From: a virus
Lineage: Duplodnaviria; Heunggongvirae; Uroviricota; Caudoviricetes
Direction: 5' to 3' (one strand)
Virus record (IMG/VR): IMGVR_UViG_3300025875_000002
Location: 1 to 64,000 of that record
DNA length: 64,000 nucleotides
Shown in pieces: positions 16,094 through 62,739 of this stretch. The position numbers were made by a program, and so were the translations under genes. The notes below the pieces were generated by a model. The model searched no databases and was not told where the DNA came from. It was given only the letters and a program-made list of their open reading frames with translations. The first letter of the stretch is position 1. Every line of letters begins with the position of its first letter.

Positions 16094-16684
16094 ATGACCA
16101 GAGCACTCATTGTTGTAGATATACAGAATGACTTTGTTGAGGGTGGTTCACTGCCGGTCGAGGGAGGAATCAAGCTCGGTTATCTTATTGCTAACGCTAT
16201 TTCTTCTCTTAAGAGTTTTGGTCTTTACGATCATGTTGTTGCGACAAAGGACTTTCACCTCCCAGGAGACTCCAACGGTGGACACATTTCCGACAACCCT
16301 AATTACGTGAGCACTTGGCCTAGCCATTGCATCCAGGGCACTACGGGTGCTATGTTTGTGCCTCAGGTTGAGGCCATCGCTGATGATTTTGAGGCGATCT
16401 TTTACAAGGGCCAGGGTCGTGCAGACTACTCTGGCTTCCAAGGGGTTGACGTCAACGGTGATCATCTGTACACTTGGCTTACAGCACGGAACGTTGACTC
16501 TGTTGATGTGATCGGTATTGCTACAGACCATTGCGTCAAGGTGACAGCCGAGGACGCAATCATGGCCGGTTTCGCTACGCGGATTCCGGCTTTACTTACT
16601 GTGGCAGTCGGCGGTCCAGATGCGGTTGTTGATACGATTGAGAAGATCAACCGTATGCAGGGACTGAATAGGAGAATCAATTGA
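16094..16684 (+). CDS. pncA: nicotinamidase/pyrazinamidase PncA (isochorismatase family)
   Basis: ALIVVDIQNDF, VVATKDFH, HCIQGT, VIGIATDHCV (catalytic Asp-Lys-Cys and metal-binding His pattern); near colinear with mycobacterial PncA. Confidence 0.85.
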   Translation: MTRALIVVDIQNDFVEGGSLPVEGGIKLGYLIANAISSLKSFGLYDHVVATKDFHLPGDSNGGHISDNPNYVSTWPSHCIQGTTGAMFVPQVEAIADDFEAIFYKGQGRADYSGFQGVDVNGDHLYTWLTARNVDSVDVIGIATDHCVKVTAEDAIMAGFATRIPALLTVAVGGPDAVVDTIEKINRMQGLNRRIN

Positions 16685-30073: not shown

Positions 30074-30101
30074 ATAGCAGTAAAGTACAGAAGGGCTATC
30101 C

Positions 30102-31923: not shown

Positions 31924-32417
31924 TGCAGAAGTTCGCTACACTCAGTGACGCAATTACTCTTGCAGAGTTTGCTCACCGCAACCAGCTTGATAAGGCTGGC
32001 CTACCCTACATTGATCACCCGCGCCGGGTGCTCGCAAAGGTTCAGGCCCAGGGAGGCTTGCCTTACGTCCAGATCGCTGCTATACTTCATGACGTGACCG
32101 AGGACACCAAGTTCACTCACGAAATGCTACTGGCACTTGGGTTCAGCGAGGCTGCGGTGCGTTTGGTGCGGCTGCTTGACAGGGATGATAGTCTTGCTAG
32201 GTACAACAGTCAGGTGTGGCAGAGCGCCGGTATCCAGGCAATTACCCCTGACGAGTTTTACTATGACGGCATTAAGTCAGACCCTGGTGCTAAGATGGTT
32301 AAGCTTGCTGATATTGAAGATAACCTTAGTGACTGGCGTCTATCTTATCTTAGTGACGAGACTCAGGCCCGGTTGAGGTTGAAGTATTTTAAGGCAAAGG
32401 AGCACATCAATGGATAA
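31923..32417 (+). CDS. HD-domain (p)ppGpp hydrolase, small alarmone hydrolase (RelA/SpoT HD family)
   Basis: FAHRNQLDKAGLPYIDHPRRV...AAILHDVTEDT motifs of SpoT/Mesh1-type HD domain. Confidence 0.65.
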   Translation: MQKFATLSDAITLAEFAHRNQLDKAGLPYIDHPRRVLAKVQAQGGLPYVQIAAILHDVTEDTKFTHEMLLALGFSEAAVRLVRLLDRDDSLARYNSQVWQSAGIQAITPDEFYYDGIKSDPGAKMVKLADIEDNLSDWRLSYLSDETQARLRLKYFKAKEHING

Positions 32418-35739: not shown

Positions 35740-36184
35740 GAGTCTTATTAAAAACATTAGGTTTGGTCTAGCTACCAACTCTAGTTCTAGCCACTCTCTT
35801 GTTTACCGTAAGACCCCCGGTGATGACACCGTTTGGGAGAGCGGTAGCATGTATGATACAGAGTATGGTTGGAACCACTTTGTACTAGACAGCCTTGGTG
35901 AGAAGTTAATGTATGCCCTTACCGGTGCACTGGGTAGCCAGCATTGGTGGAGTGATGACATTGATGAGGCTGAGATTGATCGTCTCATGGCAGAGTATGG
36001 CCCAATGTTCCCTGAGCTAAACCGCAGCCACTTTGAGCAGGCTCTTCGTGGTTACATTGATCATGAGTCTCAGGGTCTTGCTGATGTTGCAGTGGCACGT
36101 GATCCTCACGTTGAGATTCACGGCGGTAACGATAATGGCGACAGCGGTTGCTCTGACTGCTCTTCCGGAGACTATTACTACTGA
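35732..36184 (+). CDS. hypothetical acidic protein
   Basis: ORF track. Confidence 0.35.
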   Translation: MIKSLIKNIRFGLATNSSSSHSLVYRKTPGDDTVWESGSMYDTEYGWNHFVLDSLGEKLMYALTGALGSQHWWSDDIDEAEIDRLMAEYGPMFPELNRSHFEQALRGYIDHESQGLADVAVARDPHVEIHGGNDNGDSGCSDCSSGDYYY

Positions 36185-36194
36185 TAGGGGTACC

Positions 36195-37067
36195 ATGATT
36201 AAGGTGCGGCGTGACAAGAACGCAGTTGTTCTATTCAATCAGGTGACGGGTCATAAGATCCGTCTCGCCATTGGTAACTACACCAAGGCAAAGCGTCCGG
36301 AGCTAGTCGATATCAAGATTACTGACTACTGCCCTTTCGCTTGCACCTTTTGCTATCAGGACTCCACCTTGCAGGGTGAGCATGCATACAATGTGAGCAT
36401 GGGCCTTATCATTGAGCGTCTTGCCAAGGCTAAGGTATTTGAGGTGGCGCTTGGTGGTGGAGAGCCAACCGATCATCCGGCGTTTATTCAGATTCTTCGT
36501 GACTTCCGTGCTGCTGGCATTGTGCCTAACTTCACCACCAAGTCTCTCGGCTGGGTTAAGCGTAATTGGACTAAGATCGAAGACGTTGTTGGTGCTTTTG
36601 CATACTCTGCTGAGACTGTTAAGGATCTAGAAAGCGCAGATAAAATGTTTGCTGAGATTCCTCGGGATCGAATTAACATTCACTACGTCATGGGTCTACA
36701 GGACAAGGCCGGTTTCGTAAGTTTTATGAAGCGTGCAAGTGAGCTTGGGTTCCGTGTTACTCTTCTAGGATACAAGACTACTGGTCGTGGTAAGGACGTT
36801 ATTCCTGAGCCTTATGACTGGTGGATTGAGGCTGTCACGGTACTTGCAGCCCTTGGAAAATGCCCCACGATGAGTATTGACACGCCGCTTGCAGAGCAGT
36901 ATGATGGTATCATGCCAGTAAGCAGCCAGGTTTACCACACCCGCGAGGGTTTCGTAAGCATGTACATTGATGCGGTGTCTATGCAGATGGGCGCTTCTAG
37001 CTTCGATGCGGCGGTTGAGTTGGTTCCCTTTGACGACAAGTGGCTTGACCGCTACAAGAGTATTTAG
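36195..37067 (+). CDS. radical SAM enzyme
   Basis: CPFACTFCYQ (CxxxCxxC), glycine-rich ALGGGEPT motif; start at ATG 36195. Confidence 0.6.
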   Translation: MIKVRRDKNAVVLFNQVTGHKIRLAIGNYTKAKRPELVDIKITDYCPFACTFCYQDSTLQGEHAYNVSMGLIIERLAKAKVFEVALGGGEPTDHPAFIQILRDFRAAGIVPNFTTKSLGWVKRNWTKIEDVVGAFAYSAETVKDLESADKMFAEIPRDRINIHYVMGLQDKAGFVSFMKRASELGFRVTLLGYKTTGRGKDVIPEPYDWWIEAVTVLAALGKCPTMSIDTPLAEQYDGIMPVSSQVYHTREGFVSMYIDAVSMQMGASSFDAAVELVPFDDKWLDRYKSI

Positions 37068-40981: not shown

Positions 40982-41174
40982 TAATGGGTGTTTGGGCAGA
41001 AAATTATACTCCAAGTCATGAAGATGTTATCACAATGATCTTGCGTGACAACGTGTGGACACCAGCACAGGACTTGCCATGTGGATGCAACCCTGCTAAG
41101 CTTTGTGCAGAGCACGCAAGAATCCGGGCCGTGGAGCACTACCATCCTGAGACTATTCCAGCCCGGTTCAGGTC

Positions 41175-41204
41175 TTGACAAACTGTCGTACCCCCGTGCT
41201 ACAC
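41175..41204 (+). promoter_or_regulatory. sigma70-like promoter (TTGACA N18 TACACT) upstream of rIIA-like gene
   Basis: cTTGACAaactgtcgtacccccgtgcTACACTaa. Confidence 0.4.
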
Positions 41205-41236
41205 TAAACCTAACAAAAACAACACTAGGAGGCTTC

Positions 41237-43198
41237 ATGGAAACCCCCGTTTCTAGCATTACTTCCCAGGGCGACCTGGGCGGTCAGAAGGTCAAGATGA
41301 GCTTTGACGAGAATTCTCTCGCTCACCTGATGAGTGTCCTCACCGACCTTTATTCTGACCCGCAGCTTGCGGTCATCCGTGAGTACAGCACCAACGCGCT
41401 TGACGCGCACATTGAGGCTGGTATCACAGACCCGATTGAGGTTTTCACTCCTTCGGCTTACTCTCCGTACTTCAAGATCGTTGACCACGGTGTCGGCCTT
41501 TCGGTGGACGACATTACGGACATGTACTCTAAGTACGGTGCCTCTTCTAAGCGTGGAACTAACGATCAGGTTGGTATGCTTGGCCTTGGTGCTAAGTCTG
41601 CTCTGACTTTGGTCCCGCAGTTTACTTTAGTTTCCGTCAAGAACGGTGTAAAGATCAGCGTTAGCATCAGCCGTAACTCTGATGGTGCTGGTCAGATGGA
41701 GATTATTGATACTGTTTCGACTACAGAGAGTAACGGTGTTACGATTCAGATTCCTGTTCCTCGTAACCACACCTTCACTCAGAAGTGTGAGGACTTCTTC
41801 CGCTTTTGGAAGAAGGGAACCGTCCTCGTTGACGGTAAGGAGCCTGCTTTCATTGAGGGCCGACTGGTTGGGACTGACTTCATTGTTAACCAGAAGCTTC
41901 GCCAGGACTACATCGTTATGGGTAACGTTCCCTATCCGGTGAAGGAATCGCTGTACGGTAACAGCTATAGCTCGCTGGGTGTTGTTGCTTTCGTCAAGAT
42001 CGGTGACGTTAACTTCACTCCTTCCCGTGAGCAGCTTCACTACACGACCAAGACGAAGGAGACCATTGCGCGTTTGCGTAAGGACTTCTCCGACCAGCTT
42101 CTTGCGTCGATCCAGAAGGACATTGACACCGCTCCGGACCACCACACCGCGTGGGCGCGCGCAACGGAGTGGAGAGATTCTTTCGGTAACCAATTCAAGG
42201 CTTTGAGCTACAAGAACTCTGTTATTCCTAGCCACATTAGCTTCACAAGCTACATGGCTAAGGACGCAGCAGGTAACGCTTTCACTAAGAATGTCAATGC
42301 TAAGAGCATCAGCATTTTCAGCAACAGCCGTTACAACTATTCATTTCCTAGCGGCGTGAACAACGCTGATGGACCGAAGCACATTTACATTACCGGTTTC
42401 GCTGAGTCTTTGAAGGCCAGCCCGGTTCAGCGTGAGAAGGTTGCCTCTTATCTAGAGAGTCAGGGCATCCCTACAGTCAAGAACATGGTTATCACTAACC
42501 ACGATAGATTCTTCACTACTGATGATGAGAAGTGGCTTAAGGGCTTCCATTTCGCTGATTGGAAGACTGACATTGCTCCGATTAAGATTACTCGGAACAA
42601 GTCTGGTAACAAGGTTATCCGCACTGATCCTTATGACCTTTATGATGGACAGTACGGTAGCAAGCAGGTTCCCAACCTTGACCTTGCCAAGCCAATCGTG
42701 TACTATTCTACTGCCGACCTTCGCTACCCCGTGTGGCTGCCGAAGATGGTTGATGATGACGCACAGATTGTCATTCTGAGCAAGAACCGTTGGGATAAGT
42801 TCAAGCGTGATTACCCGACTGCGATGGAGTACCGTAAGGCTATCATCGCAAAGCAGGAGAAGCTGATTAAGCAGATGACCCTTGCTGATCGTATTCTCTG
42901 GCACCACAGCGGGTACCGTCACATTGTTCGCAGGCTTGATTGGAAGAAGATTAACGATCCTGACCTGCATGAGTTTGTTAAAGTTTTGTCTACGCCTGAC
43001 CTTGAATTCTCTGATGCTGCGAAGGTTCTTAGGGACGAAATGTCACGTCGTGAGGCTCCTAGCCCTGACGTTTCCATTCCTGTCAACCCCCTTACTCGCT
43101 ATCCTCTTCTCGGCAACATGCGTGAAACAGATGTTGAACATATTTATTGGTACTTGAATTCTTATTTAAAGGAGCTTAAGATTGCCAACAAGCTGTAA
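41237..43198 (+). CDS. rIIA-like protein with N-terminal GHKL/HATPase-like fold
   Basis: N-box-like IREYSTNALDAH, G-rich GMLGLGAKSAL; RBS AGGAGG; ~650 aa. Confidence 0.5.
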   Translation: METPVSSITSQGDLGGQKVKMSFDENSLAHLMSVLTDLYSDPQLAVIREYSTNALDAHIEAGITDPIEVFTPSAYSPYFKIVDHGVGLSVDDITDMYSKYGASSKRGTNDQVGMLGLGAKSALTLVPQFTLVSVKNGVKISVSISRNSDGAGQMEIIDTVSTTESNGVTIQIPVPRNHTFTQKCEDFFRFWKKGTVLVDGKEPAFIEGRLVGTDFIVNQKLRQDYIVMGNVPYPVKESLYGNSYSSLGVVAFVKIGDVNFTPSREQLHYTTKTKETIARLRKDFSDQLLASIQKDIDTAPDHHTAWARATEWRDSFGNQFKALSYKNSVIPSHISFTSYMAKDAAGNAFTKNVNAKSISIFSNSRYNYSFPSGVNNADGPKHIYITGFAESLKASPVQREKVASYLESQGIPTVKNMVITNHDRFFTTDDEKWLKGFHFADWKTDIAPIKITRNKSGNKVIRTDPYDLYDGQYGSKQVPNLDLAKPIVYYSTADLRYPVWLPKMVDDDAQIVILSKNRWDKFKRDYPTAMEYRKAIIAKQEKLIKQMTLADRILWHHSGYRHIVRRLDWKKINDPDLHEFVKVLSTPDLEFSDAAKVLRDEMSRREAPSPDVSIPVNPLTRYPLLGNMRETDVEHIYWYLNSYLKELKIANKL

Positions 43199-43778
43199 AA
43201 TCGAAGGCTGCGATAGCAAGATTGAGGCAAGAGGTTGGTGTAGCAAGCATTACCAACGATGGAGAAGGCATGGTGATCCACTCTACACTGAATTTTGTGT
43301 TGATGAGCTAACTGTAAAAGAAATTCTGTCAAACTGCACGGCCATGACTAATGGATGCCTAGAATGGAATCGTGGCCGTGTGACAGGAGGGTACGGAACT
43401 TTCATATTTGAGGGAAAAATTCACGCCTCTCATCGGGCCGTGTTAGAGTTAAGTCTTAATCGGTCGTTAGCACCAAAAATGCTAGCTTGTCACAAGTGCG
43501 ACAATCCTCCATGCTGTAATCCAGATCATTTATTTGAGGGATCATCGCAGAAAAATATTGATGATATGTTTTCTAAAGGGTGCAACAAAGCGCTTTTCGG
43601 AGAAAGTCATGGTAACAGTAAATTGAACGAGGCAAGCGTATTGGAAATAAAGATGCTCTTGCAATCCGGTGAAAGTTGTGCTAGCATTGCTAGGAGACAC
43701 AATGTGAACCCTCGCACAATATTGGACATTAAGCATGGATTAACATGGAAGCACACAAATTTTGGAGGTTTTAAATGA
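43182..43778 (+). CDS. HNH endonuclease (HNH_3-type with N-terminal Zn ribbon and C-terminal HTH)
   Basis: CKIEGCDSKIEARGWCSKH; CHKCDNPPCCNPDHLFEGSSQKN; sits between rIIA-like and rIIB-like genes. Confidence 0.55.
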   Translation: MPTSCKIEGCDSKIEARGWCSKHYQRWRRHGDPLYTEFCVDELTVKEILSNCTAMTNGCLEWNRGRVTGGYGTFIFEGKIHASHRAVLELSLNRSLAPKMLACHKCDNPPCCNPDHLFEGSSQKNIDDMFSKGCNKALFGESHGNSKLNEASVLEIKMLLQSGESCASIARRHNVNPRTILDIKHGLTWKHTNFGGFK

Positions 43779-44686
43779 AGTATAATTTGGTACAGAACGA
43801 TGAACTTGGTAGTCTTACGGCATTTTTCGATGGTCAGATGTACGTTGCTGATAACACGCACGCCTCTTGGCCGCAGCTTGTGGCCCAGGTCACGGCTGCT
43901 GATGACAGCACGGACCTTACGGCGCTAGCGCGTCTGTTCGATCCTGCTGTTGCCGTTGCAGACTTCTTCACTAAGGTTTCCGAGCGTGTCTCAGTTGCCG
44001 GTGGACACGTTTTCTTCGACGGCGAAGAGGTTAATGACGGTCTTGCCGACCACATTATCCGCTTCATGAATGAGGGTAATGACGCCCTGCCACTGGTTAG
44101 GTTCATGGAGAACATCATGACCAACCCCAACGAGAACAGCCGTACTCAGTTGTTCGATTGGCTGAGCAAGCGTGACTTCACCATTACGCCCGAGGGAACC
44201 TTCCTTGCGTACAAGGGTGTTGCTGCACGCACCAGCGGAGACGATCTGGATAAGTACCCTTACCAGTCTATCTCTAGCGGTAAGGCTATCGTTGACGGCA
44301 AGGTCTACGACGGTGCCATTCCTAACGGTGTCGGTGCTGTTGTTGAAATGCCTCGCGGTGAGGTTGCGCACGACCCTGACGTGGCTTGCCACACTGGTCT
44401 GCACGCCGGTAACTACCGTTACGCTTCCAACTTCGGTCGGATTCTGTTGATCGTTGAGATTAACCCGCGTGACGTTGTTTCCGTTCCTCACGACAGCAAC
44501 AGTGAGAAGATTCGTTGCTGCCGTTACACCGTTAAGGACGTTCAGAACAAGGAGTTCACCACTTCTTACTATGGCGGCTACTCTGCGCCGGTAGTTGACG
44601 ACGAGGATGACCTTGACGATCTGGACGAGGACTACTCCTATGACGCTCCGTACTATGGTGATGACGAGGATGACGACGGATTCTGA
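43775..44686 (+). CDS. rIIB-like protein (tentative), acidic C-terminus
   Basis: Position after rIIA-like gene, size ~300 aa, RBS GGAGG; no motif-level proof. Confidence 0.35.
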   Translation: MKYNLVQNDELGSLTAFFDGQMYVADNTHASWPQLVAQVTAADDSTDLTALARLFDPAVAVADFFTKVSERVSVAGGHVFFDGEEVNDGLADHIIRFMNEGNDALPLVRFMENIMTNPNENSRTQLFDWLSKRDFTITPEGTFLAYKGVAARTSGDDLDKYPYQSISSGKAIVDGKVYDGAIPNGVGAVVEMPRGEVAHDPDVACHTGLHAGNYRYASNFGRILLIVEINPRDVVSVPHDSNSEKIRCCRYTVKDVQNKEFTTSYYGGYSAPVVDDEDDLDDLDEDYSYDAPYYGDDEDDDGF

Positions 44687-51234: not shown

Positions 51235-51627
51235 ATGAATAAGATTAAGAAGGCTGCCGTTAGCATGGGAGCAATCGCTGCACTTATCACCGGAGGGGTT
51301 GCTGCCGACACTGCAAATGCTCCCGATGCGAGCGCAGCAGTCGCTCAGGTTTGTCACAGGGGACCATCGACTAATGCTCCCGTTGCAGTTCTAGAGTCTG
51401 GTGGGGCATCCTACCTTGTCTACCCCGGCCACTGTACCTCAGTAAATGTACCCATTTTTGGTTTCCGTCCCTCTCGTTCAGGAGATACTGTTACTTGGGC
51501 TTACGACAGTAGCTACTTTACCAACTACACCGCTGTTTATAAGAGCGGGCAGTGGACTGCTACTCTTAACAAGAGCATTGTGATTAAGAATGTTCATAGT
51601 GGATTTGGTGGTGGAGGCTCTTTCTGA
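51235..51627 (+). CDS. secreted protein of unknown function
   Basis: Signal peptide MNKIKKAAVSMGAIAALITGGVAADTANA; RBS AAGGAGA. Confidence 0.4.
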   Translation: MNKIKKAAVSMGAIAALITGGVAADTANAPDASAAVAQVCHRGPSTNAPVAVLESGGASYLVYPGHCTSVNVPIFGFRPSRSGDTVTWAYDSSYFTNYTAVYKSGQWTATLNKSIVIKNVHSGFGGGGSF

Positions 51628-51807
51628 GCTTGACACAACCGGGCCGGTAGAGTAAGCTCTAGTCAACAGACAAGGGACAGCATGAATGAAAAGAAGCCAC
51701 GAAAGAAGAAGGACAAGCCTAAGGGTGAGGTTCGTAATCTTCTAAAGATCAATGGCACTTTACAGCTTCAAAGTTGACTTTAATTTGAAGCCAGATACAA
51801 TTGGTCT

Positions 51808-52257
51808 ATGAAAATTTGCAGCAGGTGTAAAGTAAGTAAGTCTTTAGAAGAATTCTCTAAAAATAAGACAAAGAAAGACGGCAAGAATACTTTTTGCAAG
51901 CCATGCCATAAAGAGTACGTTGGCGAACACTATCAAAAAAACAAACAAGTATACTTGGATCGTACTGCTCAATATTCTAAGGATAACGCGGACAAAATAA
52001 AACAATACAAGCTTGATTGTCGGTCTGAATATACAGACCTTGAAAATAAACGTCGTGCTAGAAAGAAAAATCAGCTTGGAAAACCATACTCTAGACAGAA
52101 AATTTTTGATAGAGACGAGTGGATGTGCTATCTTTGCGGAGAATCAATCAATCCGGACCTTAAACGCCCGGATATGATGAGCGCATCCATTGATCACGTT
52201 AAGCCTATATCTAAGGGCGGACTTGATTGTGAGAGCAATGTCCGTGCAAGCATCTAA
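51808..52257 (+). CDS. HNH endonuclease
   Basis: N-terminal CxxC pairs; SIDHVKPISKGGLDCESNV HNH core. Confidence 0.6.
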   Translation: MKICSRCKVSKSLEEFSKNKTKKDGKNTFCKPCHKEYVGEHYQKNKQVYLDRTAQYSKDNADKIKQYKLDCRSEYTDLENKRRARKKNQLGKPYSRQKIFDRDEWMCYLCGESINPDLKRPDMMSASIDHVKPISKGGLDCESNVRASI

Positions 52258-52275
52258 TATGTAATGTGAGGAAAA

Positions 52276-52494
52276 ATGCCACATACACCGAAGAGGACCC
52301 CACCTGGTAAGCCAAAGAAAGAAAAGGCTAAAGGTGAGTATAGAAACTTAATGATCGTAAATGGTATCTACACATTTGAAGTCAAGCGTAAGGACAACAC
52401 ATGGACTGCACTCGGAGGGCTATCCGGTGAAACTTCTAAGGCTGATGCAGAAAAGTTTGCGCAGAACACTGCCGAGTCATGGAGGAAGCGGTGA
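52276..52494 (+). CDS. hypothetical protein
   Basis: ORF track. Confidence 0.3.
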   Translation: MPHTPKRTPPGKPKKEKAKGEYRNLMIVNGIYTFEVKRKDNTWTALGGLSGETSKADAEKFAQNTAESWRKR

Positions 52495-52688
52495 AGTATA
52501 GATATCATATATACTATGCGCATAACAATCAGCTCGTTGAGACAATTGACTGCGCAGGTATAGAAATTGTTCATGAAGGCAAGATTTTCAAGGTGTGGGG
52601 CAACAAAAGGCTTGACGGAGAACGTGAAGTGCTGGCTTTAATCCCTACATCACACTTTTATTTTAGATTGGATGACGCCATTGGCTAG
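52479..52688 (+). CDS. hypothetical protein
   Basis: ORF track. Confidence 0.25.
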   Translation: MEEAVKYRYHIYYAHNNQLVETIDCAGIEIVHEGKIFKVWGNKRLDGEREVLALIPTSHFYFRLDDAIG

Positions 52689-52860
52689 CTTTCAAGTTGT
52701 TAGAGTCGAAGATAATGCTATTATCGATGTGATTGAAGATGCTGTTCTTTTCTTGAAGGATGGTGTTTATAAGTTTGCTGACCCGACCGGTAACGGCGGG
52801 GAGGGAAAGGGCAAGGCGTTCTTTCCTGTTCGCTCCTACTATGTAAAGAAGGTGATTTAA
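52672..52860 (+). CDS. hypothetical protein
   Basis: ORF track. Confidence 0.25.
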   Translation: MTPLASFQVVRVEDNAIIDVIEDAVLFLKDGVYKFADPTGNGGEGKGKAFFPVRSYYVKKVI

Positions 52861-52978
52861 CATGCTTGGAATTATTTGGGATGCACTGTGGATCGCTGTA
52901 CCGGCGTGGGCCGGTTGGAAGGGTCATAAGATGGTTTATGGTCCCAAGACTGATCCCAGCCAGAAGGCGATTCGCTGA

Positions 52979-53338
52979 GTGTACGAGTATATTGCCAAGG
53001 TCCGCTCAGAATACGATGGTGACACCATCCGTGCAGATGTGGACCTTGGCTTTAACATGTGGATGATGAATGCAGACTTGCGGCTAAATAGGATTAATGC
53101 TCCTGAGCTTAAGGGTGAGCAGCGTCCGCTTGGCATTGCAACCAGAAATTATATGTTGACTCTCATGCCCCTCGGTGCTACGATCTACATGCGAACGATG
53201 AAGGATTCTACCGAGAAGTACGGACGCTATTTAGTAGATATTTACCCTCTCGGGTTTGATATGTATTGTCTAAATGACCGGTTGGTGTCCGAAGGGTTTG
53301 CGAAATATTATGACGGGACCGGGCCTAAGCCAATCTAA
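52979..53338 (+). CDS. staphylococcal-nuclease-like (thermonuclease/SNase) domain protein
   Basis: YDGDTIRADVD and RLNRINAPE motifs. Confidence 0.5.
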   Translation: MYEYIAKVRSEYDGDTIRADVDLGFNMWMMNADLRLNRINAPELKGEQRPLGIATRNYMLTLMPLGATIYMRTMKDSTEKYGRYLVDIYPLGFDMYCLNDRLVSEGFAKYYDGTGPKPI

Positions 53339-53347
53339 GGAGCACCA

Positions 53348-54127
53348 ATGAAGTATGAGAAGAATCTAAAGAATAACATCCTAGAGGGCGTGGTGATCGG
53401 TGTTGTTTTTACCGGTCTGTCCTATCTCCTTGGCGTTTCTTTCGGATGGATTGACAGCGTTAACTGGCTAGAAGCCTTCGCTGTCTTCACCTCCTACGTG
53501 TGCACGTGGCTGTGTGTTCGTGAGCGTCGGTGGAACTATCCCATCGGTGCACTGTCTACCGCAGCCTACGCTGTAGTTTTTTGGCAGATGGACCTGTATG
53601 CTAGTGCTGCACTTAATGCCTACCTTGTGCCTACGCTGCTTTACGGCTGGTACAGGTGGCGCGATGATGACAACACTCGTCCGATCACGCGGGTTGCGGC
53701 CAAGTGGATTCCTGTCTACCTCGCTGTGACCGCTGCAACTTATGGCGCTGTGCTCTTGATTATAAACGCCTTCGATGCTAAGCTTGCTCTGACAGACAGC
53801 GTGATCCTGGTCGGGTCGATCCTGGCTCAGTTCCTGCTGGACAACAAGAAATTGTCCACTTGGAGCGTTTGGGCTGTGGTCAATGTCCTCGCCATTTATA
53901 CCTATTTCAACGCAGACTTGACCCTCGCTGGCTTCCAATACATTACCTTTTTACTCAACACCGGCGTTGGATATATTGTTTGGAAGAATTCAATGAATAG
54001 GAATAATGATGACCCGAGCCTTTACATTAATGACATGTCTACCCCCAACCCTGGGGCACCTACGATTAATTCAATTCAGCCAGCAGCTAGCACCGACGAC
54101 GGTGATCGTAAGCACGCAGCCGTCTGA
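53348..54127 (+). CDS. pnuC: nicotinamide riboside transporter PnuC
   Basis: Multi-TM; QMDLYASAALNAYLVPTLLYGWYRWRDD closely matches PnuC signature region (LYAS...GWY.W). Confidence 0.8.
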   Translation: MKYEKNLKNNILEGVVIGVVFTGLSYLLGVSFGWIDSVNWLEAFAVFTSYVCTWLCVRERRWNYPIGALSTAAYAVVFWQMDLYASAALNAYLVPTLLYGWYRWRDDDNTRPITRVAAKWIPVYLAVTAATYGAVLLIINAFDAKLALTDSVILVGSILAQFLLDNKKLSTWSVWAVVNVLAIYTYFNADLTLAGFQYITFLLNTGVGYIVWKNSMNRNNDDPSLYINDMSTPNPGAPTINSIQPAASTDDGDRKHAAV

Positions 54128-55034
54128 GCCTTTTCCGATGGAGCGCTACAAGGCAATCAAGGAGGCCATTTCTGGTCAGGGAGTCATGGCAATGCTATAC
54201 AACAGAGAGATTGAGCAGAACCCCGAAGCCCCTGGATTCTGGCAGACATGGCGAGATATCTTTTATCAGTATGGTTTCTCAGAGGGTGACTACATCGTAG
54301 CCAGTGAGCCTTACGGACAGCGTTTGGCAGAAGAGCTTGGTGGTGTGTTTATGCCTTATGACCTTAACCGGTCCATTGACCCAATTAAGGCCACACCGGT
54401 TCGTAATGATCCCCTGACGCTCTGGCGTTGGAGGGATATGGTTCCTGAGTTTCGTAAGTACGTGATGCAGCGAGTTACCATTTTCGGTGCTGAGTCTTGC
54501 GGAAAGACTACTCTCAGTCAGGACTTGGCCGTTGAGTATAACTCTCGGTGGCTGTTTGAGTGGGCACGGCCTTACCTAGAGGCTGTCGGTGCTGAGGTTA
54601 CCGACGAAAAGATGTATGCAATTCACAAGGGTCAGCTTGCTTTGCAGCAGCATGGCCGGTGGAATGTGACAGACGCGCCGGTTCTGTTTCAGGATACAGA
54701 CCTGTTTAGCACTGTTGGTTACTGGAATCTCTGGAAGCCAGAGCACAACATCAATGAACTTATCCTTGATGCGGCTGACAATAAGTCCCAGCTTTACCTG
54801 ATTGCACCCTCTAATATTCCGTTTGAGGCTGATCCTCTCCGGTACGGTGGGCATGAGCGGGAGTCGGCAGACCAGTTTTGGATCGACCTGTGCAAGTCTT
54901 ATGGACTTAACTACAGAGTCTTGACTTCCAGCGACCGGGTTGGTAGAGTGAAGGAAGCGGGCAAGTATATCCATGAGTTGCTGGACGACAACATTGTCCA
55001 GCCGTTGCACTACGAGAGGACGTTCAATGGTTGA
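54006..55034 (+). CDS. nadR: bifunctional NMN adenylyltransferase / ribosylnicotinamide kinase NadR
   Basis: NMNAT motif FTLMTCLPPTLGHLRLIQ (GxFxPxHxGH-like); RWRDMVPEFRKYVMQRVTIFGAESCGKTTL matches NadR RNK-domain Walker A region; 3 prime of pnuC overlaps by ~120 nt. Confidence 0.85.
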   Translation: MMTRAFTLMTCLPPTLGHLRLIQFSQQLAPTTVIVSTQPSEPFPMERYKAIKEAISGQGVMAMLYNREIEQNPEAPGFWQTWRDIFYQYGFSEGDYIVASEPYGQRLAEELGGVFMPYDLNRSIDPIKATPVRNDPLTLWRWRDMVPEFRKYVMQRVTIFGAESCGKTTLSQDLAVEYNSRWLFEWARPYLEAVGAEVTDEKMYAIHKGQLALQQHGRWNVTDAPVLFQDTDLFSTVGYWNLWKPEHNINELILDAADNKSQLYLIAPSNIPFEADPLRYGGHERESADQFWIDLCKSYGLNYRVLTSSDRVGRVKEAGKYIHELLDDNIVQPLHYERTFNG

Positions 55035-55257
55035 GTTTGTTGCTCTTGGAGCGGCAATTGCTCCTGCACTATACGCTACCTATTTCCTCGGAACCAAGCG
55101 GTCAAGGACCATTGAGTATGAGGAACCAGATTGTATCCATGAATGGGGCAAATGGAAGGTTGCAGAAGTAACTGGCAGCAAGGCCGTTTGGGGACAGACG
55201 CGCAATTGCACTAAGTGTGGCTACACTATTTGGAAGAAGGGAACGGTTGACCGTTAA
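54973..55257 (+). CDS. hypothetical small protein with CxxC
   Basis: ORF track; CIHEWGKW...CTKCGY; overlaps nadR end, doubtful. Confidence 0.2.
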   Translation: MSCWTTTLSSRCTTRGRSMVEFVALGAAIAPALYATYFLGTKRSRTIEYEEPDCIHEWGKWKVAEVTGSKAVWGQTRNCTKCGYTIWKKGTVDR

Positions 55258-55717
55258 GGAGGTATTGATGGACGCAGTGATTGTGGATATGGATGGTACT
55301 GCTGCTGACGTAAGGACAATTCGTCATCACGTTACTGGAGCGGTTCACAATTTTCATAAATTTTATGAAGAATCGGTTAATTGTCCGCCCAATATTGAAG
55401 TGATCGATGCTGTCAAGAAGGCTCAGTCTAATGGACTAAAGGTATTAATTGTTACCGCTCGACAGGATCGGTACATGTATCACACTCTTTTCTGGCTGTC
55501 TGGCCCGGAGGTTGATCTATCCTTTGATGACATTTATATGAGAAAGACTAATGATAACCGGCCGGATCATGTGGTAAAGAGGGAGATCCTCGAAAGAATT
55601 TACAAGGACGGATACAATCCTGTCCATGCTTGGGATGATCGGCCTGATATTGCTGCAATTTGGGAAGAGGCAGGCATTCCAACCACTCTGGTGGCTGGAA
55701 TCGGCTTTGAAGATTGA
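55217..55717 (+). CDS. HAD-superfamily phosphatase
   Basis: Motif I VIVDMDGT (DxDG[TV]); size typical of small HAD nucleotidases/PNK-phosphatase domains. Confidence 0.5.
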   Translation: MATLFGRRERLTVKEVLMDAVIVDMDGTAADVRTIRHHVTGAVHNFHKFYEESVNCPPNIEVIDAVKKAQSNGLKVLIVTARQDRYMYHTLFWLSGPEVDLSFDDIYMRKTNDNRPDHVVKREILERIYKDGYNPVHAWDDRPDIAAIWEEAGIPTTLVAGIGFED

Positions 55718-55760
55718 GTATGGTATGCTAGGCTAGAGTCCTACTTAAAGGGAGGCCCTG

Positions 55761-56024
55761 ATGACTGATTTTGATATGGCAATTGATGCTCTTATTAAGA
55801 CCCGTGCAGAGCGTGAGCGACTGCGTAAATTTGCTGAGTGGATTGTCTCTTTAGACGATGACGACCCGGAAAGCCCCGGTCGTCAGGCACGCAAGACAGT
55901 TACTCTAAGTAACATTATTGATAGAGCTAGGAAGGCATGTAAGGTTACAAAGAAGACGGAAGAATTTCACTTTTGTTACCCCGATAGCTGCGAAATATAT
56001 GGAGGTAGTAATGAAGGAAAGTAA
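55761..56024 (+). CDS. hypothetical protein
   Basis: ORF track; RBS AAGGGAGG. Confidence 0.35.
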   Translation: MTDFDMAIDALIKTRAERERLRKFAEWIVSLDDDDPESPGRQARKTVTLSNIIDRARKACKVTKKTEEFHFCYPDSCEIYGGSNEGK

Positions 56025-56292
56025 GAAAAGATTTCTTCTTTGGGGCACTCCTTCCGCTGGAATTATTGGGAGTGCATGGCTTTTTGCTGCTGACAATCCT
56101 ACCATCTTTCTTACGATGATGGTATGTTCTCTTCCTTTCCAAGCGAGGATGTGGAAGGAAGTTGTTTAATTCTATCGACCAACTGTTTTTTCGGTTCATC
56201 ATGTGGCTGTTCTTCCCTAAGTTGAAGAAGCTACTTGACGGGGACCAACCTCTAGGGTAGACTATCCCTACGTCCACAAGAAGGGGGTACAG

Positions 56293-57156
56293 ATGATCCT
56301 CAGCACTATCATTGACATTGCTACCGTTGCCGGTCCCACCGTGGCCGGTTACGTTGGCTTGAAGATCGTTGACAAGAAGATGGAGCAGCCGAAGCAGAAG
56401 GCAATCGCTGGTCCCACCCTAATTGATGGACGCACTAAGGACGAGTGGTACGGTCTTATTGAGGGGATGGGCAAGGAGAATTACGAGCAGCTTTCTATGC
56501 CGCCTCTTGATGGTCTAGAGCGTTCCACTGAGATTACTTGGGATGTTGAACCTCTCATGGGCACCTTTAACTACACCCAGCTTATGCGTCGTTGGTATCC
56601 TGAGCAGTTCTGTGAGTATTGCTCCAAGCGTGGTTGCGAGCAGACCTGCTGGGAGTATGAGGATTACGTTGAGGAACAGCGCGAGCGAGAGCGTGATGCT
56701 AAGCGTCGTGCGCTACAGGCCCAGCGTCGTAAGGATCAGGAGGCCCGTGACCAACAGAGGCTAAAGAAGGCTCTTGTCGAGAAAGGCAAGCCCCGAGATA
56801 TTATTTCCAAGCGTGAGTTCAACTATGAAGATGAACTTGATATGATTCAAAAGAAAATAAATAAGCTTAATCAGGTGGCAAATAATATTCACTTGTCCGA
56901 AAATATAGAGGATGTTAATACTCCTTCTGGGCCTGTGACGTTTACCATCAAGAAGGAAGAAAACTGGCCTAACTTTTATATTGTCACTGCGAATCGTAAT
57001 GGACTTTCAGCCAGCCGTAAAGTTGCGGTCATTACAATTGAATTCAGCATGAACCTGGTCAAGGAAGCTCTTATTGAAGAGCTTGATAAGCTGGGCGCAA
57101 TAGTTTCTCGTACTACCATCCAGTGGAAAGATAAAACTTACTATATTATTTACTGA
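56293..57156 (+). CDS. hypothetical protein with N-terminal hydrophobic segment and Arg/Gln-rich coiled coil
   Basis: ORF track. Confidence 0.4.
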   Translation: MILSTIIDIATVAGPTVAGYVGLKIVDKKMEQPKQKAIAGPTLIDGRTKDEWYGLIEGMGKENYEQLSMPPLDGLERSTEITWDVEPLMGTFNYTQLMRRWYPEQFCEYCSKRGCEQTCWEYEDYVEEQRERERDAKRRALQAQRRKDQEARDQQRLKKALVEKGKPRDIISKREFNYEDELDMIQKKINKLNQVANNIHLSENIEDVNTPSGPVTFTIKKEENWPNFYIVTANRNGLSASRKVAVITIEFSMNLVKEALIEELDKLGAIVSRTTIQWKDKTYYIIY

Positions 57157-57390
57157 GAGTAGTCAATAGTTATCAGATTGTTGCATTGACGTAGGCACGT
57201 GCTCGTGCTACACTCTAACCATACCGGAGGAAATGATGACTGTTTTGATTCGTATTTTCTGCAACGCTTGTCATGGCATGGCAGGGGTTGGTCTTGATTT
57301 TTCTCACGCCAAGTTTAATGTCAGGGAGACTGGCGGGAGGATTTTTGGGTCCAGGGTAGCTGTCTGTTCAGGATGTGCTAAGGCCACTGC

Positions 57391-57870
57391 ATGACGCTGG
57401 GTACCGAGGAAGAAGCACGGCTGATCTACCGTAGGCGCAGAAATGGGCGAGGACCACTCCCAAGGGGCTGGAAGAAGCTAGGTGAGGGGGCATCCCGATC
57501 AGCTTACCTTTCCCCCTTGGGAGTGGTATATAAGATTAATAAGCCCCATCTTGATGAGGACTATAATCTTTCGGAAGTATTTAACTTTAAAAGGTTTAAA
57601 TCCAGCAAGAAGAGACTGCCGACGGGCTGGCGAATTGCTAAAATTAATCTTTACAGTTTTAAGCACGAAGGTGATACCATTAATGTAGTAGCAATGCAGT
57701 ACATTCAAGGTCGTCATGAAGTTTTATGCTCTTATGAGCAAGAAGAATCGTTTTATAAAAATTCCGGCGCTTTGAGGGCCTGGAAGGTTTTGGAATTAAA
57801 CGATGTGCACGAGGGTAATTTTGTAATCACCCCAGAGGGAACGAAAGTCATAATTGATCTAGGAGAATAG
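57391..57870 (+). CDS. hypothetical protein
   Basis: ORF track. Confidence 0.35.
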   Translation: MTLGTEEEARLIYRRRRNGRGPLPRGWKKLGEGASRSAYLSPLGVVYKINKPHLDEDYNLSEVFNFKRFKSSKKRLPTGWRIAKINLYSFKHEGDTINVVAMQYIQGRHEVLCSYEQEESFYKNSGALRAWKVLELNDVHEGNFVITPEGTKVIIDLGE

Positions 57871-61675: not shown

Positions 61676-62316
61676 AGCTGTTTTTGGGGGCGGCTAAAAA
61701 TGATCTTTGGGCCGGGACGGGTTTTCGCCCCAGCCCGGCCCGTCCGTCACTCTGCGTGATAGCGCCGCCATTCCCGCTTTTCGCGGTGCTTGACCCTACG
61801 CCTCTCAGACTTTACACCACTAGGCGGAATGTCGCAACACGTGCACTGCACTGAGTCTCGGCGGTTTCGCTTGCTCATCACGATTGCCATACCCCTAGCT
61901 TACACGAAAACCGCCCGGTTGCAAGTATTGACTTATCAGACTTTGGGGTTTATACGTGCGTGCACACACAGAGAACAGCCTTAAAAGATCTTGAAGTTAA
62001 GGGTTGTGATCTTGGTATGGTGCGTGTAATGTTCTCCCTGTCAGAAGGTAGCGGCTAAAGCGAAAGCCGCTAGCGAGGTAGCCACCAAAACGGCCTACTG
62101 ACACCGCACGGAACATCCTAGGCGCGTCAAATCACCTAGGCTCGCTAGCAGACCGTGATACGGATAGTCTGCCCTTGACACACCCACCAACCTCCTATAG
62201 AGTAGGGATCATGCGAAACTACTTCAAGCGTTACCGTTCCACCGGGCGACACACCTCCCGGTTCGTTGAGCGAAACACTGTCGGCCTTTCCATCTTCTCC
62301 TGATAGGATCACACAC

Positions 62317-62739
62317 ATGAATACTGTTGCAGAGTTGACCGGCATCGGTTTTGATGCTACCCTCGCACAGCACGTGCTTGACTACGTTGAGCGGCTTAAC
62401 GGTAGTGACGCTATCGGGCCGGGTAAGAATCATAAGGGTGGACGCTACATGAGCTTTAGCGTCGATTCTAAGGCTACCCGTGCCAATAAGTATGTGCGTA
62501 TCATCGGTGACACCGGTGGTCCCTATGGGAAGTCTGTGCATGCCTTTATCGTTAAGGCAACCGGGCAGGTGGTCAAGCCTGCCGGTTATAAGGCACCGGC
62601 TAAGTCTACAGCGGCCGGTAAGGTTGGTGAATTTCTTTCCAACTACACCTTGACCGATGATGACTCACGTGCTAAGCTCTGGAACCTGCTTGCTACGGAC
62701 GCCGGTTGTTTTGCCGGTGGATATCTTTACCAGCGGTAG
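62317..62739 (+). CDS. hypothetical protein (start uncertain; ORF track gives 62266)
   Basis: ORF track frame; ATG 62317 preceded by AGGA. Confidence 0.3.
   Translation: MNTVAELTGIGFDATLAQHVLDYVERLNGSDAIGPGKNHKGGRYMSFSVDSKATRANKYVRIIGDTGGPYGKSVHAFIVKATGQVVKPAGYKAPAKSTAAGKVGEFLSNYTLTDDDSRAKLWNLLATDAGCFAGGYLYQR

What the first reader, a model, noticed from the sequence alone, without database searches (positions are those of the whole stretch)
53348..55717. Phage-encoded pnuC-nadR (NR transporter + NMN adenylyltransferase/NR kinase) with adjacent HAD phosphatase
A contiguous PnuC and full-length bifunctional NadR, with a HAD phosphatase immediately downstream. This gives the phage its own nicotinamide-riboside to NMN to NAD+ route. 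It is not among the NAD+ reconstitution architectures I know described for phages (ADPR-PP synthetase + Namat; Nampt + Nmnat). The 3 prime end of pnuC overlaps the nadR start by about 120 nt in another frame, suggesting translational coupling or an unusual C-terminal extension of PnuC. A plausible role is replenishing NAD+ during infection or countering NAD+-depleting immunity (TIR, SIR2, SEFIR effectors).
Basis: partly seen in the sequence, partly recalled or inferred. Interest (0 to 1): 0.85.

Follow-up and report, generated by a model that had tools for sequence, protein, structure and literature searches.

The report
Phage nicotinamide-riboside NAD+ salvage gene pair
The window carries an intact phage gene pair, a PnuC-type transporter and a NadR-type enzyme, predicted to import nicotinamide riboside and turn it into NAD+; this kind of module was predicted in 2024 and shown experimentally in 2026 under the name NARP3, so this is a divergent new example rather than a new system.

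Summary
pnuC (53348-54127) and a NadR-like gene without the HTH domain (54006-55034) are intact, co-oriented and overlap by 122 nt. A HAD phosphatase gene (55268-55717) follows, but a 76-aa ORF lies between it and nadR.

The novelty claim does not hold. A phage PnuC + NadR operon was predicted as a third NAD+ reconstitution route by Osterman et al. (2024 preprint). Yan et al. (Sci Adv, Aug 2026) demonstrated it as NARP3 for Bas30_86/87. Many GenBank phages already annotate the pair.

This copy is divergent: 25% (NadR) and 28% (PnuC) identity to a T5-like homologue of the NARP3 proteins. The gene order is reversed (pnuC then nadR). It lies on a 133-kb metagenomic contig that looks like a tRNA-rich phage of actinobacteria.

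The HAD protein is a polynucleotide-kinase-type 3'-phosphatase domain. It is widespread in phages that lack NadR and is rarely near nadR in relatives, so it is a neighbour, not a pathway member.

The overlap is real but not conserved. Across 20 related loci, 10 show no overlap and the others overlap by 1 to 122 nt. The PnuC tail is an incidental read-through.

A more consistent accessory is a PncA-like nicotinamidase, encoded here at 16094-16684 and adjacent to the module in some relatives.

Verdict: new member of a known kind; low interest.

The parts
53348..54127 (+). pnuC: PnuC-family nicotinamide riboside transporter, 259 aa. The transporter core is roughly residues 1-220. Residues 220-259 form a non-conserved hydrophilic tail.
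   Evidence: PF04973 at 8.7e-40, profile positions 1-175 of 175. TIGR01528 at 75.5 bits against a 42.45-bit cutoff. phrog_1880 at 2.8e-36. N. mucosa PnuC 4QTN at 7e-12, query residues 36-220. Several hydrophobic stretches up to residue ~211 (only some of the expected helices pass the crude cutoff); the tail has mean hydropathy -0.83.
54006..55034 (+). nadR-like gene, 342 aa, without an HTH domain. It has an N-terminal NMN adenylyltransferase domain (T15-L-G-H18; NPEAPGFW loop; K128-A-T-x-x-R133) and a C-terminal ribosylnicotinamide kinase domain (Walker A G161AESCGKT168; D230-T-D232; R279YGG..RE286). The real start may be the second ATG at 54009.
   Evidence: Family hits. Profile against solved structures: 9x6f (Bas30_86) at 5e-27 over the full length, plus 8x7f, 6gye and 1lw7. 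AlphaFold2 model with pLDDT 93.6; the top Foldseek hits are NadR structures, with TM 0.74 to 8x7f. Conserved columns are listed.
53999..54002 (+). Shine-Dalgarno-like AGGA, 3 nt before the first ATG and 6 nt before the second ATG of nadR. It lies inside the pnuC coding sequence.
   Evidence: Read from the sequence. Relatives carry AGGA or AGGAG at the same place.
54006..54127 (+). Out-of-frame overlap of 122 nt. The PnuC tail is read in the frame that starts one base before each nadR codon, across the region that encodes the conserved NadR N-terminus.
   Evidence: L007, L010 and L011 use the same relative frame but have different stop positions. The overlap lengths are; L010 (74 nt) was worked out by hand from the output.
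55027..55257 (+). Intervening 76-aa ORF of unknown function, with a hydrophobic N-terminus and a CxxC-containing C-terminus. It is a neighbour, not assigned to the module.
   Evidence: Public gene call. No Pfam, NCBIfam, PHROG or PADLOC hit.
55268..55717 (+). Stand-alone HAD phosphatase of the polynucleotide kinase/phosphatase (Pnkp) type, 149 aa, with an intact D-M-D-G-T motif. It is a neighbour and is not supported as part of the NAD+ route.
   Evidence: PF25109 at 73.6 bits. phrog_415 at 2e-37. Best solved relative is the Pnkp1 phosphatase domain 4xrp, 5.5e-8. Distribution.
16094..16684 (+). PncA-like nicotinamidase, 196 aa. It is a candidate accessory NAD+ salvage gene of the same phage, 37 kb upstream of the module.
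   Evidence: M. tuberculosis PncA 3pl1 at 3e-52, residues 3-185. The residues that align with the M. tuberculosis catalytic triad (D8, K96, C138) and metal ligands (D49, H51, H57, H71; residue roles from my own knowledge of PncA) are all kept. NF008623 at 1.5e-24, below its cutoff. PncA-like genes lie next to pnuC-nadR in 6 of 29 distinct related loci.

Best explanation
This is a NARP3-type nicotinamide riboside (NR) salvage module carried by a large, tRNA-rich phage that most likely infects actinobacteria.

Proposed mechanism:
1. PnuC, a membrane facilitator, lets external NR into the infected cell.
2. The C-terminal P-loop kinase domain of the NadR-like enzyme phosphorylates NR with ATP to give NMN. 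This traps the substrate inside the cell.
3. The N-terminal nucleotidyltransferase domain adenylates NMN with ATP to give NAD+.

The pair gives the phage a route to NAD+ that does not depend on host enzymes. It can refill the pool when it is drained during infection, including by NAD+-degrading defence effectors (SIR2, TIR, DSR).

Shown here: gene integrity, family and fold membership, conservation of the catalytic motifs, and a strictly conserved pnuC-then-nadR arrangement in related viral contigs. Inferred from the characterised homologues (Bas30_86/87 and bacterial PnuC and NadR): the substrates, the chemistry and the counter-defence role.

The 122-nt overlap is a by-product of a late pnuC stop codon. 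nadR is translated from its own Shine-Dalgarno site, which lies inside pnuC. The HAD phosphatase is an unrelated end-healing type enzyme that happens to sit nearby.
For: PnuC: PF04973 at 8.7e-40 and the TIGR01528 equivalog above its cutoff. It aligns to 4QTN over residues 36-220 and keeps Q196, N214 and both pocket tryptophans (residue list from PMC13464706).

NadR-like: the profile hits the Bas30_86 crystal structure 9x6f over the full length at 5e-27, and also E. coli, L. lactis and H. influenzae NadR. The AlphaFold2 model has pLDDT 93.6 and pTM 0.89, and its eight best PDB matches are all NadR structures, with TM 0.65-0.74. TxGH, the PExPxGxW NMN loop, (K/S)ATxxR, Walker A GxxxxGKT, DTD and the RYGG..RE lid are invariant or nearly so across 23 homologues.

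Arrangement: PnuC lies upstream of NadR on the same strand in 32 of 32 related loci, 29 of them distinct.

Function of the kind: Bas30_86/87 imports NR, makes NAD+ and rescues phages from Sir2-HerA and DSR1 (PMC13464706). The operon was predicted in the 2024 preprint.

Phage context: terminase, rIIA/rIIB, 37 tRNAs and a tmRNA. WhiB is also present.
Against: No biochemical data exist for this clade.

Identity to the characterised NARP3 proteins is low, 25% for NadR and 28% for PnuC. The gene order is the reverse of the T5-like prototype.

The NMNAT domain lacks the canonical G-K-F start of the ATP-binding loop. Here it reads M-T-C/A-L-P-P-T-x-G-H, whereas Bas30_86 K10/F11 mutants are impaired.

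Two of the four polar NR ligands of N. mucosa PnuC are substituted, Q124 to L and Y242 to F.

The curated full-length NadR models are not reached: TIGR01526 scores 99.5 against a 341-bit cutoff, and NF005988 scores 52.6 against 201.

Whether the host environment supplies NR is unknown. Whether the host carries NADase defences is also unknown.
Confidence: 0.8

Rival explanations
1. The biochemistry is the same, but the role is general metabolic support. On this reading the module is an auxiliary metabolic gene set that keeps NAD+ high for phage replication, as was proposed for the KVP40 salvage pathway and for the jumbo-phage NAD genes. It would not be a dedicated answer to NAD+-depleting immunity.
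For: The module sits among tRNA genes and other host-takeover and metabolic genes. The phage also carries a PncA-like nicotinamidase. Relatives add NAPRT, which looks like broad pathway augmentation. Jumbo-phage surveys interpret pnuC/nadR in this way (PMC11662467).
Against: The only experimentally tested PnuC+NadR pair acts as a counter-defence. The two roles are not mutually exclusive, and sequence alone cannot separate them.
Confidence: 0.3
2. The module has three genes: PnuC, NadR and the HAD phosphatase. On this reading the HAD enzyme acts on a pyridine nucleotide, for example converting NMN or NaMN to the riboside, or NADP to NAD.
For: The HAD gene lies 233 nt downstream of nadR on the same strand with no predicted terminator between them. 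It gives a weak sub-threshold hit to HAD-IIIB acid phosphatases, 24.1 bits against a 27-bit cutoff. From my own knowledge, that family includes the NMN-dephosphorylating e(P4) enzyme. The closest relative, L004, also has the HAD gene about 1 kb downstream.
Against: The best family is the Pnkp phosphatase domain, PF25109 at 73.6 bits. The best solved relative is RNA-repair Pnkp1. Homologues occur in 1311 phage records dominated by Klebsiella, Mycobacterium, Gordonia and Streptomyces phages, none of which is among the ten commonest host genera of the 314 NadR-positive records. The gene is within 5 kb of nadR in only 3 of 29 distinct related loci, and in those it is separated by other genes. The protein has no signal peptide, so it cannot act like periplasmic e(P4).
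Confidence: 0.05
3. The clade has shifted specificity. Its atypical ATP-loop start and altered PnuC pocket would mean that it handles a different pyridine nucleoside, for example nicotinic acid riboside to NaMN to NaAD. That would fit the frequent linkage with PncA and NAPRT.
For: The G-K-F start is replaced by M-T-A/C-L throughout the clade. PnuC has Q124 to L and Y242 to F. PncA-like genes lie adjacent in 6 of 29 distinct loci and NAPRT in 2.
Against: The NMN-binding loop and the TxGH and ATxxR motifs are conserved. The TIGR01528 PnuC equivalog cutoff is passed. From my own knowledge, no NadE-like NAD synthetase, which a deamidated route needs, was seen in the window.
Confidence: 0.07
4. The overlap is an assembly or sequencing frameshift artefact at the 3' end of pnuC.
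For: The contig is a MEGAHIT metagenome assembly. The other two frames carry stop codons right at the nadR start. An open run of 39 codons in this frame is somewhat long, roughly p = 0.03 from the stop density over nadR.
Against: Independent related contigs L007, L010 and L011, L015 and L024 show overlaps of 44-92 nt. L007, L010 and L011, which were checked, use the same relative frame. The PnuC core aligns without a break up to the nadR start. Both products are full length.
Confidence: 0.03

Closest known systems
NARP3, Bas30_86/Bas30_87 of Escherichia phage TrudiRoth and T5-like Epseptimavirus/Tequintavirus phages (Yan et al., Sci Adv 2026, PMC13464706; structures 9x6f and 9x6h)
   Same: Both are two adjacent co-oriented phage genes: a PnuC-type NR transporter and a NadR-like enzyme with NMNAT and RNK domains and no HTH. 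The profile matches 9x6f over its full length at 5e-27. Both lie in or near a tRNA-rich part of the genome.
   Different: Identity is only 25% for NadR and 28% for PnuC. The gene order is pnuC then nadR, whereas the T5-like phages have nadR then pnuC. The window has a 122-nt overlap where the T5-like phages have a 1-nt gap. The ATP-loop start is M-T-C-L rather than G-K-F. The host lineage is probably actinobacteria rather than Enterobacteriaceae. There are no experimental data for this copy.
PnuC + NadR-like genes annotated in Microbacterium phages (Big4, Cece, Zooman, A3Wally) and in Sinorhizobium phiM12-like, Agrobacterium Atu_ph07, Ochrobactrum vB_OspM_OC and Caulobacter CcrSC-like phages
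   Same: These are the best GenBank phage relatives: NadR 45-47% and PnuC 36-41% identity to the Microbacterium phages, and NadR 31-41% (PnuC up to 43%) to the alphaproteobacterial phages. All have the same pnuC-upstream-of-nadR order.
   Different: In the Microbacterium phages the two genes are about 1.3 kb apart with three small genes between them, and a 'nicotinate ribosyltransferase' gene lies nearby. There is no nucleotide-level similarity to the window.
Bacterial PnuC/NadR NR salvage (Haemophilus influenzae, Salmonella/E. coli, Lactococcus lactis; structures 4QTN, 1LW7, 8X7F, 6GYE)
   Same: The transporter fold and family are the same, and so is the two-domain enzyme fold, with TM 0.65-0.74. 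The inferred NR to NMN to NAD+ chemistry is the same.
   Different: The phage enzyme has no N-terminal HTH repressor domain. It scores below the curated NadR cutoffs. It is encoded by a phage.
NARP1 (Adps + Namat) and NARP2 (Nampt + Nmnat) phage NAD+ reconstitution pathways (Osterman et al. 2024)
   Same: The overall purpose, rebuilding NAD+ during infection, is the same.
   Different: The substrates and enzymes differ: ADPR plus nicotinamide for NARP1 and nicotinamide plus PRPP for NARP2, against imported NR here. No NARP1 or NARP2 genes were seen in the window.
T4 Pnkp / Pnkp1 phosphatase domain (PF25109), for the HAD gene only
   Same: It has the DxDxT HAD core. The best Pfam, PHROG and PDB matches all point here.
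   Different: It is a stand-alone phosphatase domain without the kinase domain. Its substrate is untested.

Membership tests
NARP3 (phage PnuC + NadR-like NAD+ reconstitution pathway) | A PnuC-type NR transporter gene | tested here: met
   PF04973 at 137 bits against a 27.3-bit cutoff. TIGR01528 at 75.5 bits against 42.45. 4QTN at 7e-12.
NARP3 (phage PnuC + NadR-like NAD+ reconstitution pathway) | A NadR-like enzyme with NMNAT and RNK domains and no HTH | tested here: met
   Full-length profile match to 9x6f at 5e-27. The AlphaFold2 model matches NadR structures with TM up to 0.74. The protein starts 4 residues before beta-strand 1 of the NMNAT domain, which leaves no room for an HTH.
NARP3 (phage PnuC + NadR-like NAD+ reconstitution pathway) | The two genes are adjacent and co-oriented in a phage genome | tested here: met
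   The ORFs overlap on the + strand. Phage hallmark genes are present in the window. The arrangement is conserved in 32 of 32 related loci.
NARP3 (phage PnuC + NadR-like NAD+ reconstitution pathway) | Close relationship to Bas30_86/87 (the 124 operons the authors found by BLAST; order nadR then pnuC) | tested here: not met
   Identity is 25% and 28%. The gene order is reversed. This copy belongs to a different clade of the same two families.
NARP3 (phage PnuC + NadR-like NAD+ reconstitution pathway) | NR import, NR to NAD+ conversion, and rescue from NADase defence | not testable with these tools
   This needs transport and enzyme assays and infection assays.
NadR enzymatic core (NMNAT + RNK) | (H/T)xGH and SxTxxR-type nucleotidyltransferase motifs | tested here: met
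   T15-L-G17-H18 and K128-A-T130-P-V-R133 are present. T15, G17, H18 and R133 are invariant in 23 homologues. They align with LTRGH and SATMIR of 9x6f.
NadR enzymatic core (NMNAT + RNK) | Canonical G-x-F-x-P start of the ATP-binding loop | tested here: not met
   The window has M9-T-C-L-P13 and the clade consensus is M-T-A-L-P, where Bas30_86 has G-K-F-A-P.
NadR enzymatic core (NMNAT + RNK) | RNK Walker A, Walker B and lid | tested here: met
   G161AESCGKT168, Q229-D-T-D232 and R279-Y-G-G...R285-E286 are invariant or nearly invariant. AAA_28 matches at 8e-19.
NadR enzymatic core (NMNAT + RNK) | Score above the curated NCBIfam NadR cutoffs | tested here: not met
   TIGR01526 scores 99.5 against 341.15 bits. 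NF005988 scores 52.6 against 201 bits.
Trifunctional NadR regulator | N-terminal HTH DNA-binding domain | tested here: not met
   NF005988 aligns only from profile position 144 onward. There is no sequence N-terminal to the NMNAT domain.
PnuC NR transporter (substrate specificity) | The NR-coordinating residues of N. mucosa PnuC (Q124, Q196, N214, Y242) and the pocket tryptophans | tested here: inconclusive
   In the 4QTN alignment, Q196, N214 and both tryptophans are kept. Q124 aligns to L and Y242 aligns to F. Bas30_87 itself uses a reduced set of three residues.
HAD phosphatase as a member of the NAD+ module | Conserved linkage with pnuC-nadR | tested here: not met
   It lies within 5 kb in 3 of 29 distinct loci. 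It is absent from L007, L008 and L009. Homologues are abundant in phages of genera that are not among the ten commonest for NadR.
Pnkp-type HAD phosphatase (PF25109) | HMM score above the cutoff and the DxDxT nucleophile motif | tested here: met
   73.6 bits against a 27.6-bit cutoff. The motif V-D-M-D-G-T is present at the N-terminus. Pnkp1 4xrp matches at 5.5e-8.

The most novel reading that the evidence does not exclude
This uncultivated, actinophage-like clade may run an extended NAD+ programme rather than the two-gene NARP3.

The NR import and NadR pair would work together with a mycobacterial-type nicotinamidase (PncA). In some relatives a NAPRT is also inserted in or next to the module. 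The phage would then rebuild NAD+ from external NR and also recycle, or remove, the nicotinamide released by NADase defence effectors.

The atypical ATP loop of the NadR-like enzyme could then reflect adapted specificity.
Probability: 0.2. Interest if true: 0.4.

Novelty: new member of a known kind. Interest (0 to 1): 0.15.

Why it matters
The practical value is small.
- It extends the NARP3-type NR salvage module to a divergent clade of large, tRNA-rich, probably actinobacteria-infecting phages that is known mainly from metagenomes.
- It shows that pnuC-then-nadR is the dominant order in that clade.
- It flags PncA, and sometimes NAPRT, as recurrent companions, rather than the HAD phosphatase.
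- It exposes an annotation error: public gene callers truncate nadR to avoid the overlap, which deletes the catalytic TxGH motif.

It does not reveal a new kind of pathway.

Tried and rejected
- Megablast of 53000-56000 and of 40000-64000 against GenBank phages found no nucleotide relatives.
- An exact-sequence lookup of the 342-aa NadR failed because the public gene call is the truncated 298-aa version.
- A lookup of ORF 62266-62739 also failed.
- I looked for an NAD+ or pnuC-motif riboswitch. There is none in the window, and only 9 nt separate pnuC from the upstream gene.
- The promoter and terminator scan of 51500-57500 gave no convincing internal terminator and only consensus-level promoter hits.
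- PADLOC gave no hit for PnuC, NadR, ORF76, HAD or PncA.
- The second AAA_28 protein (3236-3787) is not detectably similar to the NadR kinase domain, so I dropped it as a possible extra NR kinase.
- I searched the 5.7 kb beyond the window end for more NAD genes and found none.
- I considered the HAD protein as an e(P4)-like NMN phosphatase and rejected it on family assignment and distribution.
- I considered a frameshift artefact and rejected it because independent contigs share the overlap frame.
Full report
**Observation**

- ORF 53348-54127 (259 aa) matches the PnuC family across the whole Pfam profile (PF04973, 8.7e-40). It passes the curated cutoff of the NCBIfam PnuC equivalog (TIGR01528, 75.5 bits against 42.45).
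- ORF 54006-55034 (342 aa) matches AAA_28 (8e-19). It matches the NadR NMN-adenylyltransferase model TIGR01526 over residues 10-310 (2e-28, below that model's high cutoff). It also matches the phage family phrog_3462, 'nicotinamide-nucleotide adenylyltransferase', over its full length (2e-50).
- The ORF ending at 55717 is a HAD phosphatase of the polynucleotide-kinase type (PF25109, 73.6 bits; phrog_415).

pnuC and nadR overlap by 122 nt in different frames.

Two details differ from the finding.
- A 76-aa ORF (55027-55257) separates nadR from the HAD gene, whose probable start is 55268.
- The NadR-like protein lacks the HTH domain of trifunctional NadR.

**Where the window comes from**

The window is identical to part of a 133,313-bp contig from ENA metagenome assembly ERZ27293403. 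It has no nucleotide-level relative among 50,697 GenBank phage records.

It is clearly a phage. Nearly all called genes are on one strand. It encodes a large terminase that is 54% identical to that of Streptomyces phages such as Gilson and Wakanda. It encodes rIIA and rIIB homologues closest to Streptomyces phages. It carries 37 tRNA genes and a tmRNA.

Several features point to an actinobacterial host; this is an inference.
- A WhiB gene is present.
- The PncA homologue is closest to that of M. tuberculosis.
- The best GenBank phage matches are Microbacterium phages for NadR, and Microbacterium together with alphaproteobacterial phages for PnuC. For the HAD protein they are Streptomyces phages.

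**The NadR-like enzyme**

A search of about 5.8 billion proteins gave 1010 homologues at E <= 1e-10, many on 100-140-kb contigs. The public gene call for this contig (P0001, 298 aa) starts at Met45 to avoid the overlap. That removes the nucleotidyltransferase TxGH motif. Homologues on other contigs begin M(M)xRAF(V/T)LMTALPPTxGH, which supports the start at 54006 or 54009. An AGGA sequence lies 3 and 6 nt upstream of those two ATGs.

In an alignment of 23 homologues with 47-75% identity, the following are invariant or nearly so:
- P13-P-T15-x-G17-H18
- the NMN loop P-E-x-P-G-F-W
- K/S-A-T-x-x-R133
- Walker A G161AES(T/C)GKT
- Q-D-T-D232
- the lid R279-Y-G-G...R-E

A profile built from this alignment matches the Bas30_86 crystal structure (9x6f) over its full length at 5e-27. 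It matches E. coli, L. lactis and H. influenzae NadR about equally well. An AlphaFold2 model (pLDDT 93.6, pTM 0.89) finds NadR structures as its eight best PDB matches, with TM 0.65-0.74. Both catalytic domains are therefore present and look intact.

One departure is that the canonical G-K-F start of the ATP-binding loop is M-T-(A/C)-L in this clade. K10 and F11 were among the residues mutated in Bas30_86.

**PnuC**

The protein aligns to N. mucosa PnuC (4QTN) over residues 36-220. I used the residue list in the NARP3 paper. Q196, N214 and the two pocket tryptophans are kept. Q124 aligns with Leu and Y242 with Phe.

Residues 220-259 are hydrophilic and unrelated to the tails of homologues.

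**The overlap**

DNA homology with the closest long relative (L004; NadR 74% identical) covers 53336-53949 and 54005-55034. L004 has two extra small genes between those blocks.

In L007, L010 and L011 the pnuC reading frame also runs into nadR, in the same relative frame, and stops after 44, 74 and 86 nt.

Across 20 scorable related loci, 10 have no overlap. The other 10 overlap by 1, 1, 4, 4, 4, 44, 71, 86, 92 and 122 nt. The window is the extreme case.

The short overlaps of 1 and 4 nt are the usual arrangement for translational coupling. The long ones are best explained by loss of the nearby stop codon. The tail sequence is then dictated by the conserved nadR N-terminus read out of frame. 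An open run of 39 codons in that frame is only mildly unusual, about p = 0.03 from the stop density.

A stop codon 122 nt past the nadR start does not fit termination-reinitiation coupling (an inference from general knowledge of coupling); nadR has its own Shine-Dalgarno site. Because independent contigs share the frame, I see no sign of a frameshift artefact.

**The HAD phosphatase**

Its best Pfam and PHROG families are the Pnkp phosphatase domain. Its only solved relative by sequence is the phosphatase domain of RNA-repair Pnkp1 (4xrp). The DxDxT motif is intact.

Homologues occur in 1311 phage records, led by Klebsiella, Mycobacterium, Escherichia, Gordonia and Streptomyces phages. NadR homologues occur in 314 records, led by Salmonella, Escherichia, Bacillus, Lactobacillus and Vibrio phages.

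I surveyed 32 NadR-containing loci, 29 of them distinct: 27 from IMG/VR plus five metagenomic relatives. A HAD homologue lies within 5 kb in only three distinct loci, and never directly adjacent. PnuC, by contrast, lies upstream of NadR on the same strand in all 32.

I conclude that the HAD gene is a neighbour and not a pathway component. Its likely role is 3'-phosphate end healing of nucleic acids; that is an inference from family membership.

**What is already known**

- The 2024 preprint of Osterman et al. states that phage NadR genes usually share an operon with PnuC. It also states that this operon could be a further NAD+ reconstitution pathway (10.1101/2024.02.11.579819).
- Yan et al. 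(Sci Adv, 12 Aug 2026, PMC13464706) named it NARP3. They showed that Bas30_87 binds NR and is needed for the NR-dependent rescue. They showed that Bas30_86 converts NR to NAD+ through its RNK and NMNAT domains. They also showed that the pair restores NAD+ and rescues phages from Sir2-HerA and DSR1, and they solved the Bas30_86 structure.
- Jumbo-phage surveys also list pnuC/nadR clusters (PMC11662467).
- GenBank records of Microbacterium, Sinorhizobium, Agrobacterium, Ochrobactrum, Caulobacter, Lysinibacillus, Vibrio and T5-like phages annotate both genes.

**How this copy differs from the prototype**

- It is 25% (NadR) and 28% (PnuC) identical to the T5-like proteins.
- The gene order is reversed: T5-like phages have nadR then pnuC with a 1-nt gap.
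- It belongs to a clade that the NARP3 paper does not discuss. That paper makes no mention of Actinobacteria, Microbacterium, Streptomyces or metagenomes.

**A companion that fits better than the HAD gene**

The window encodes a nicotinamidase homologue at 16094-16684. It matches M. tuberculosis PncA at 3e-52. The residues aligned with that enzyme's catalytic triad (D8, K96, C138) and metal ligands (D49, H51, H57, H71) are all kept.

PncA-like genes lie within 5 kb of nadR in six of the 29 distinct related loci. In L016 and L018/19 the gene sits between pnuC and nadR. In L007 and L017 a nicotinate phosphoribosyltransferase is also present.

This suggests that parts of this viral clade carry an extended salvage set. 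Whether PncA cooperates functionally with PnuC and NadR is untested.

**Verdict**

The system is a divergent new member of the known NARP3 kind. The HAD gene is not part of it, and the overlap is incidental. Interest is low.

Noticed in passing
window 16094-16684 (+): A PncA-like nicotinamidase. It matches M. tuberculosis PncA 3pl1 at 3e-52 and keeps all catalytic and metal-binding residues. PncA-like genes are adjacent to pnuC-nadR in 6 of 29 distinct related viral loci.
   Followed up: partly
L007 3271-6817; L017; L016 and L018/L019: Relatives carry larger NAD modules. L007 has pnuC, nadR, a nicotinate phosphoribosyltransferase (NF005529 at 2e-106), a small ORF and a PncA-like gene in a row. 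L016 and L018/19 have pnuC, a PncA-like gene and nadR.
   Followed up: partly
window 27491-27888 (+): A full-length GOLLD RNA (Rfam RF02032, 203.5 bits against a gathering score of 150), lying among the tRNA genes.
   Followed up: no
window 8706-47031 (+): 37 tRNA genes and a tmRNA (29767-30075; tag peptide ADYDVVAEAEAILAEASLISA). They are interspersed with many HNH and endonuclease VII genes.
   Followed up: no
window 8706-8779 (+): A tRNA with anticodon CTA (amber-suppressor type; ARAGORN labels it tRNA-Pyl). TAG still ends 13 of 73 long + strand ORFs, so general recoding is not evident.
   Followed up: partly
window 8154-8600 (+): A NADAR-domain protein (PF08719 at 1.2e-19; TIGR02464 at 78 bits). 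From my own knowledge, this family is linked to ADP-ribose and NAD metabolism and to reversal of ADP-ribosylation.
   Followed up: no
window 54006-54137, compared with public protein P0001: The public gene call for nadR on this contig starts at Met45 (298 aa) to avoid the overlap, which removes the catalytic TxGH motif. The calls in L010 and L011 are truncated in a similar way.
   Followed up: yes
window 41045-44686 (+): rIIA-like (717 aa) and rIIB-like (303 aa) genes with a 198-aa ORF between them. They are closest to the genes of Streptomyces BE-type phages, at 38% identity.
   Followed up: no
window 3236-3787 (+): A second AAA_28 P-loop protein (183 aa, 2.2e-8), encoded close upstream of the terminase gene. 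It is not detectably similar to the NadR kinase domain.
   Followed up: partly
window 31923-32417, 36033-37067, about 47576 onward, 52979-53338: An HD_4 (SpoT-like hydrolase) domain protein, a radical SAM protein, a WhiB-family gene, and a staphylococcal-nuclease-like gene directly upstream of pnuC.
   Followed up: no
L006 865-3815 (Salmonella phage faergetype): In T5-like phages the NARP3 pair lies in the tRNA region and directly follows an SPFH/Band_7 'lipoprotein' gene. The window also has a Band_7 gene (17581-18483) in its tRNA region, but it is 35 kb from pnuC.
   Followed up: no
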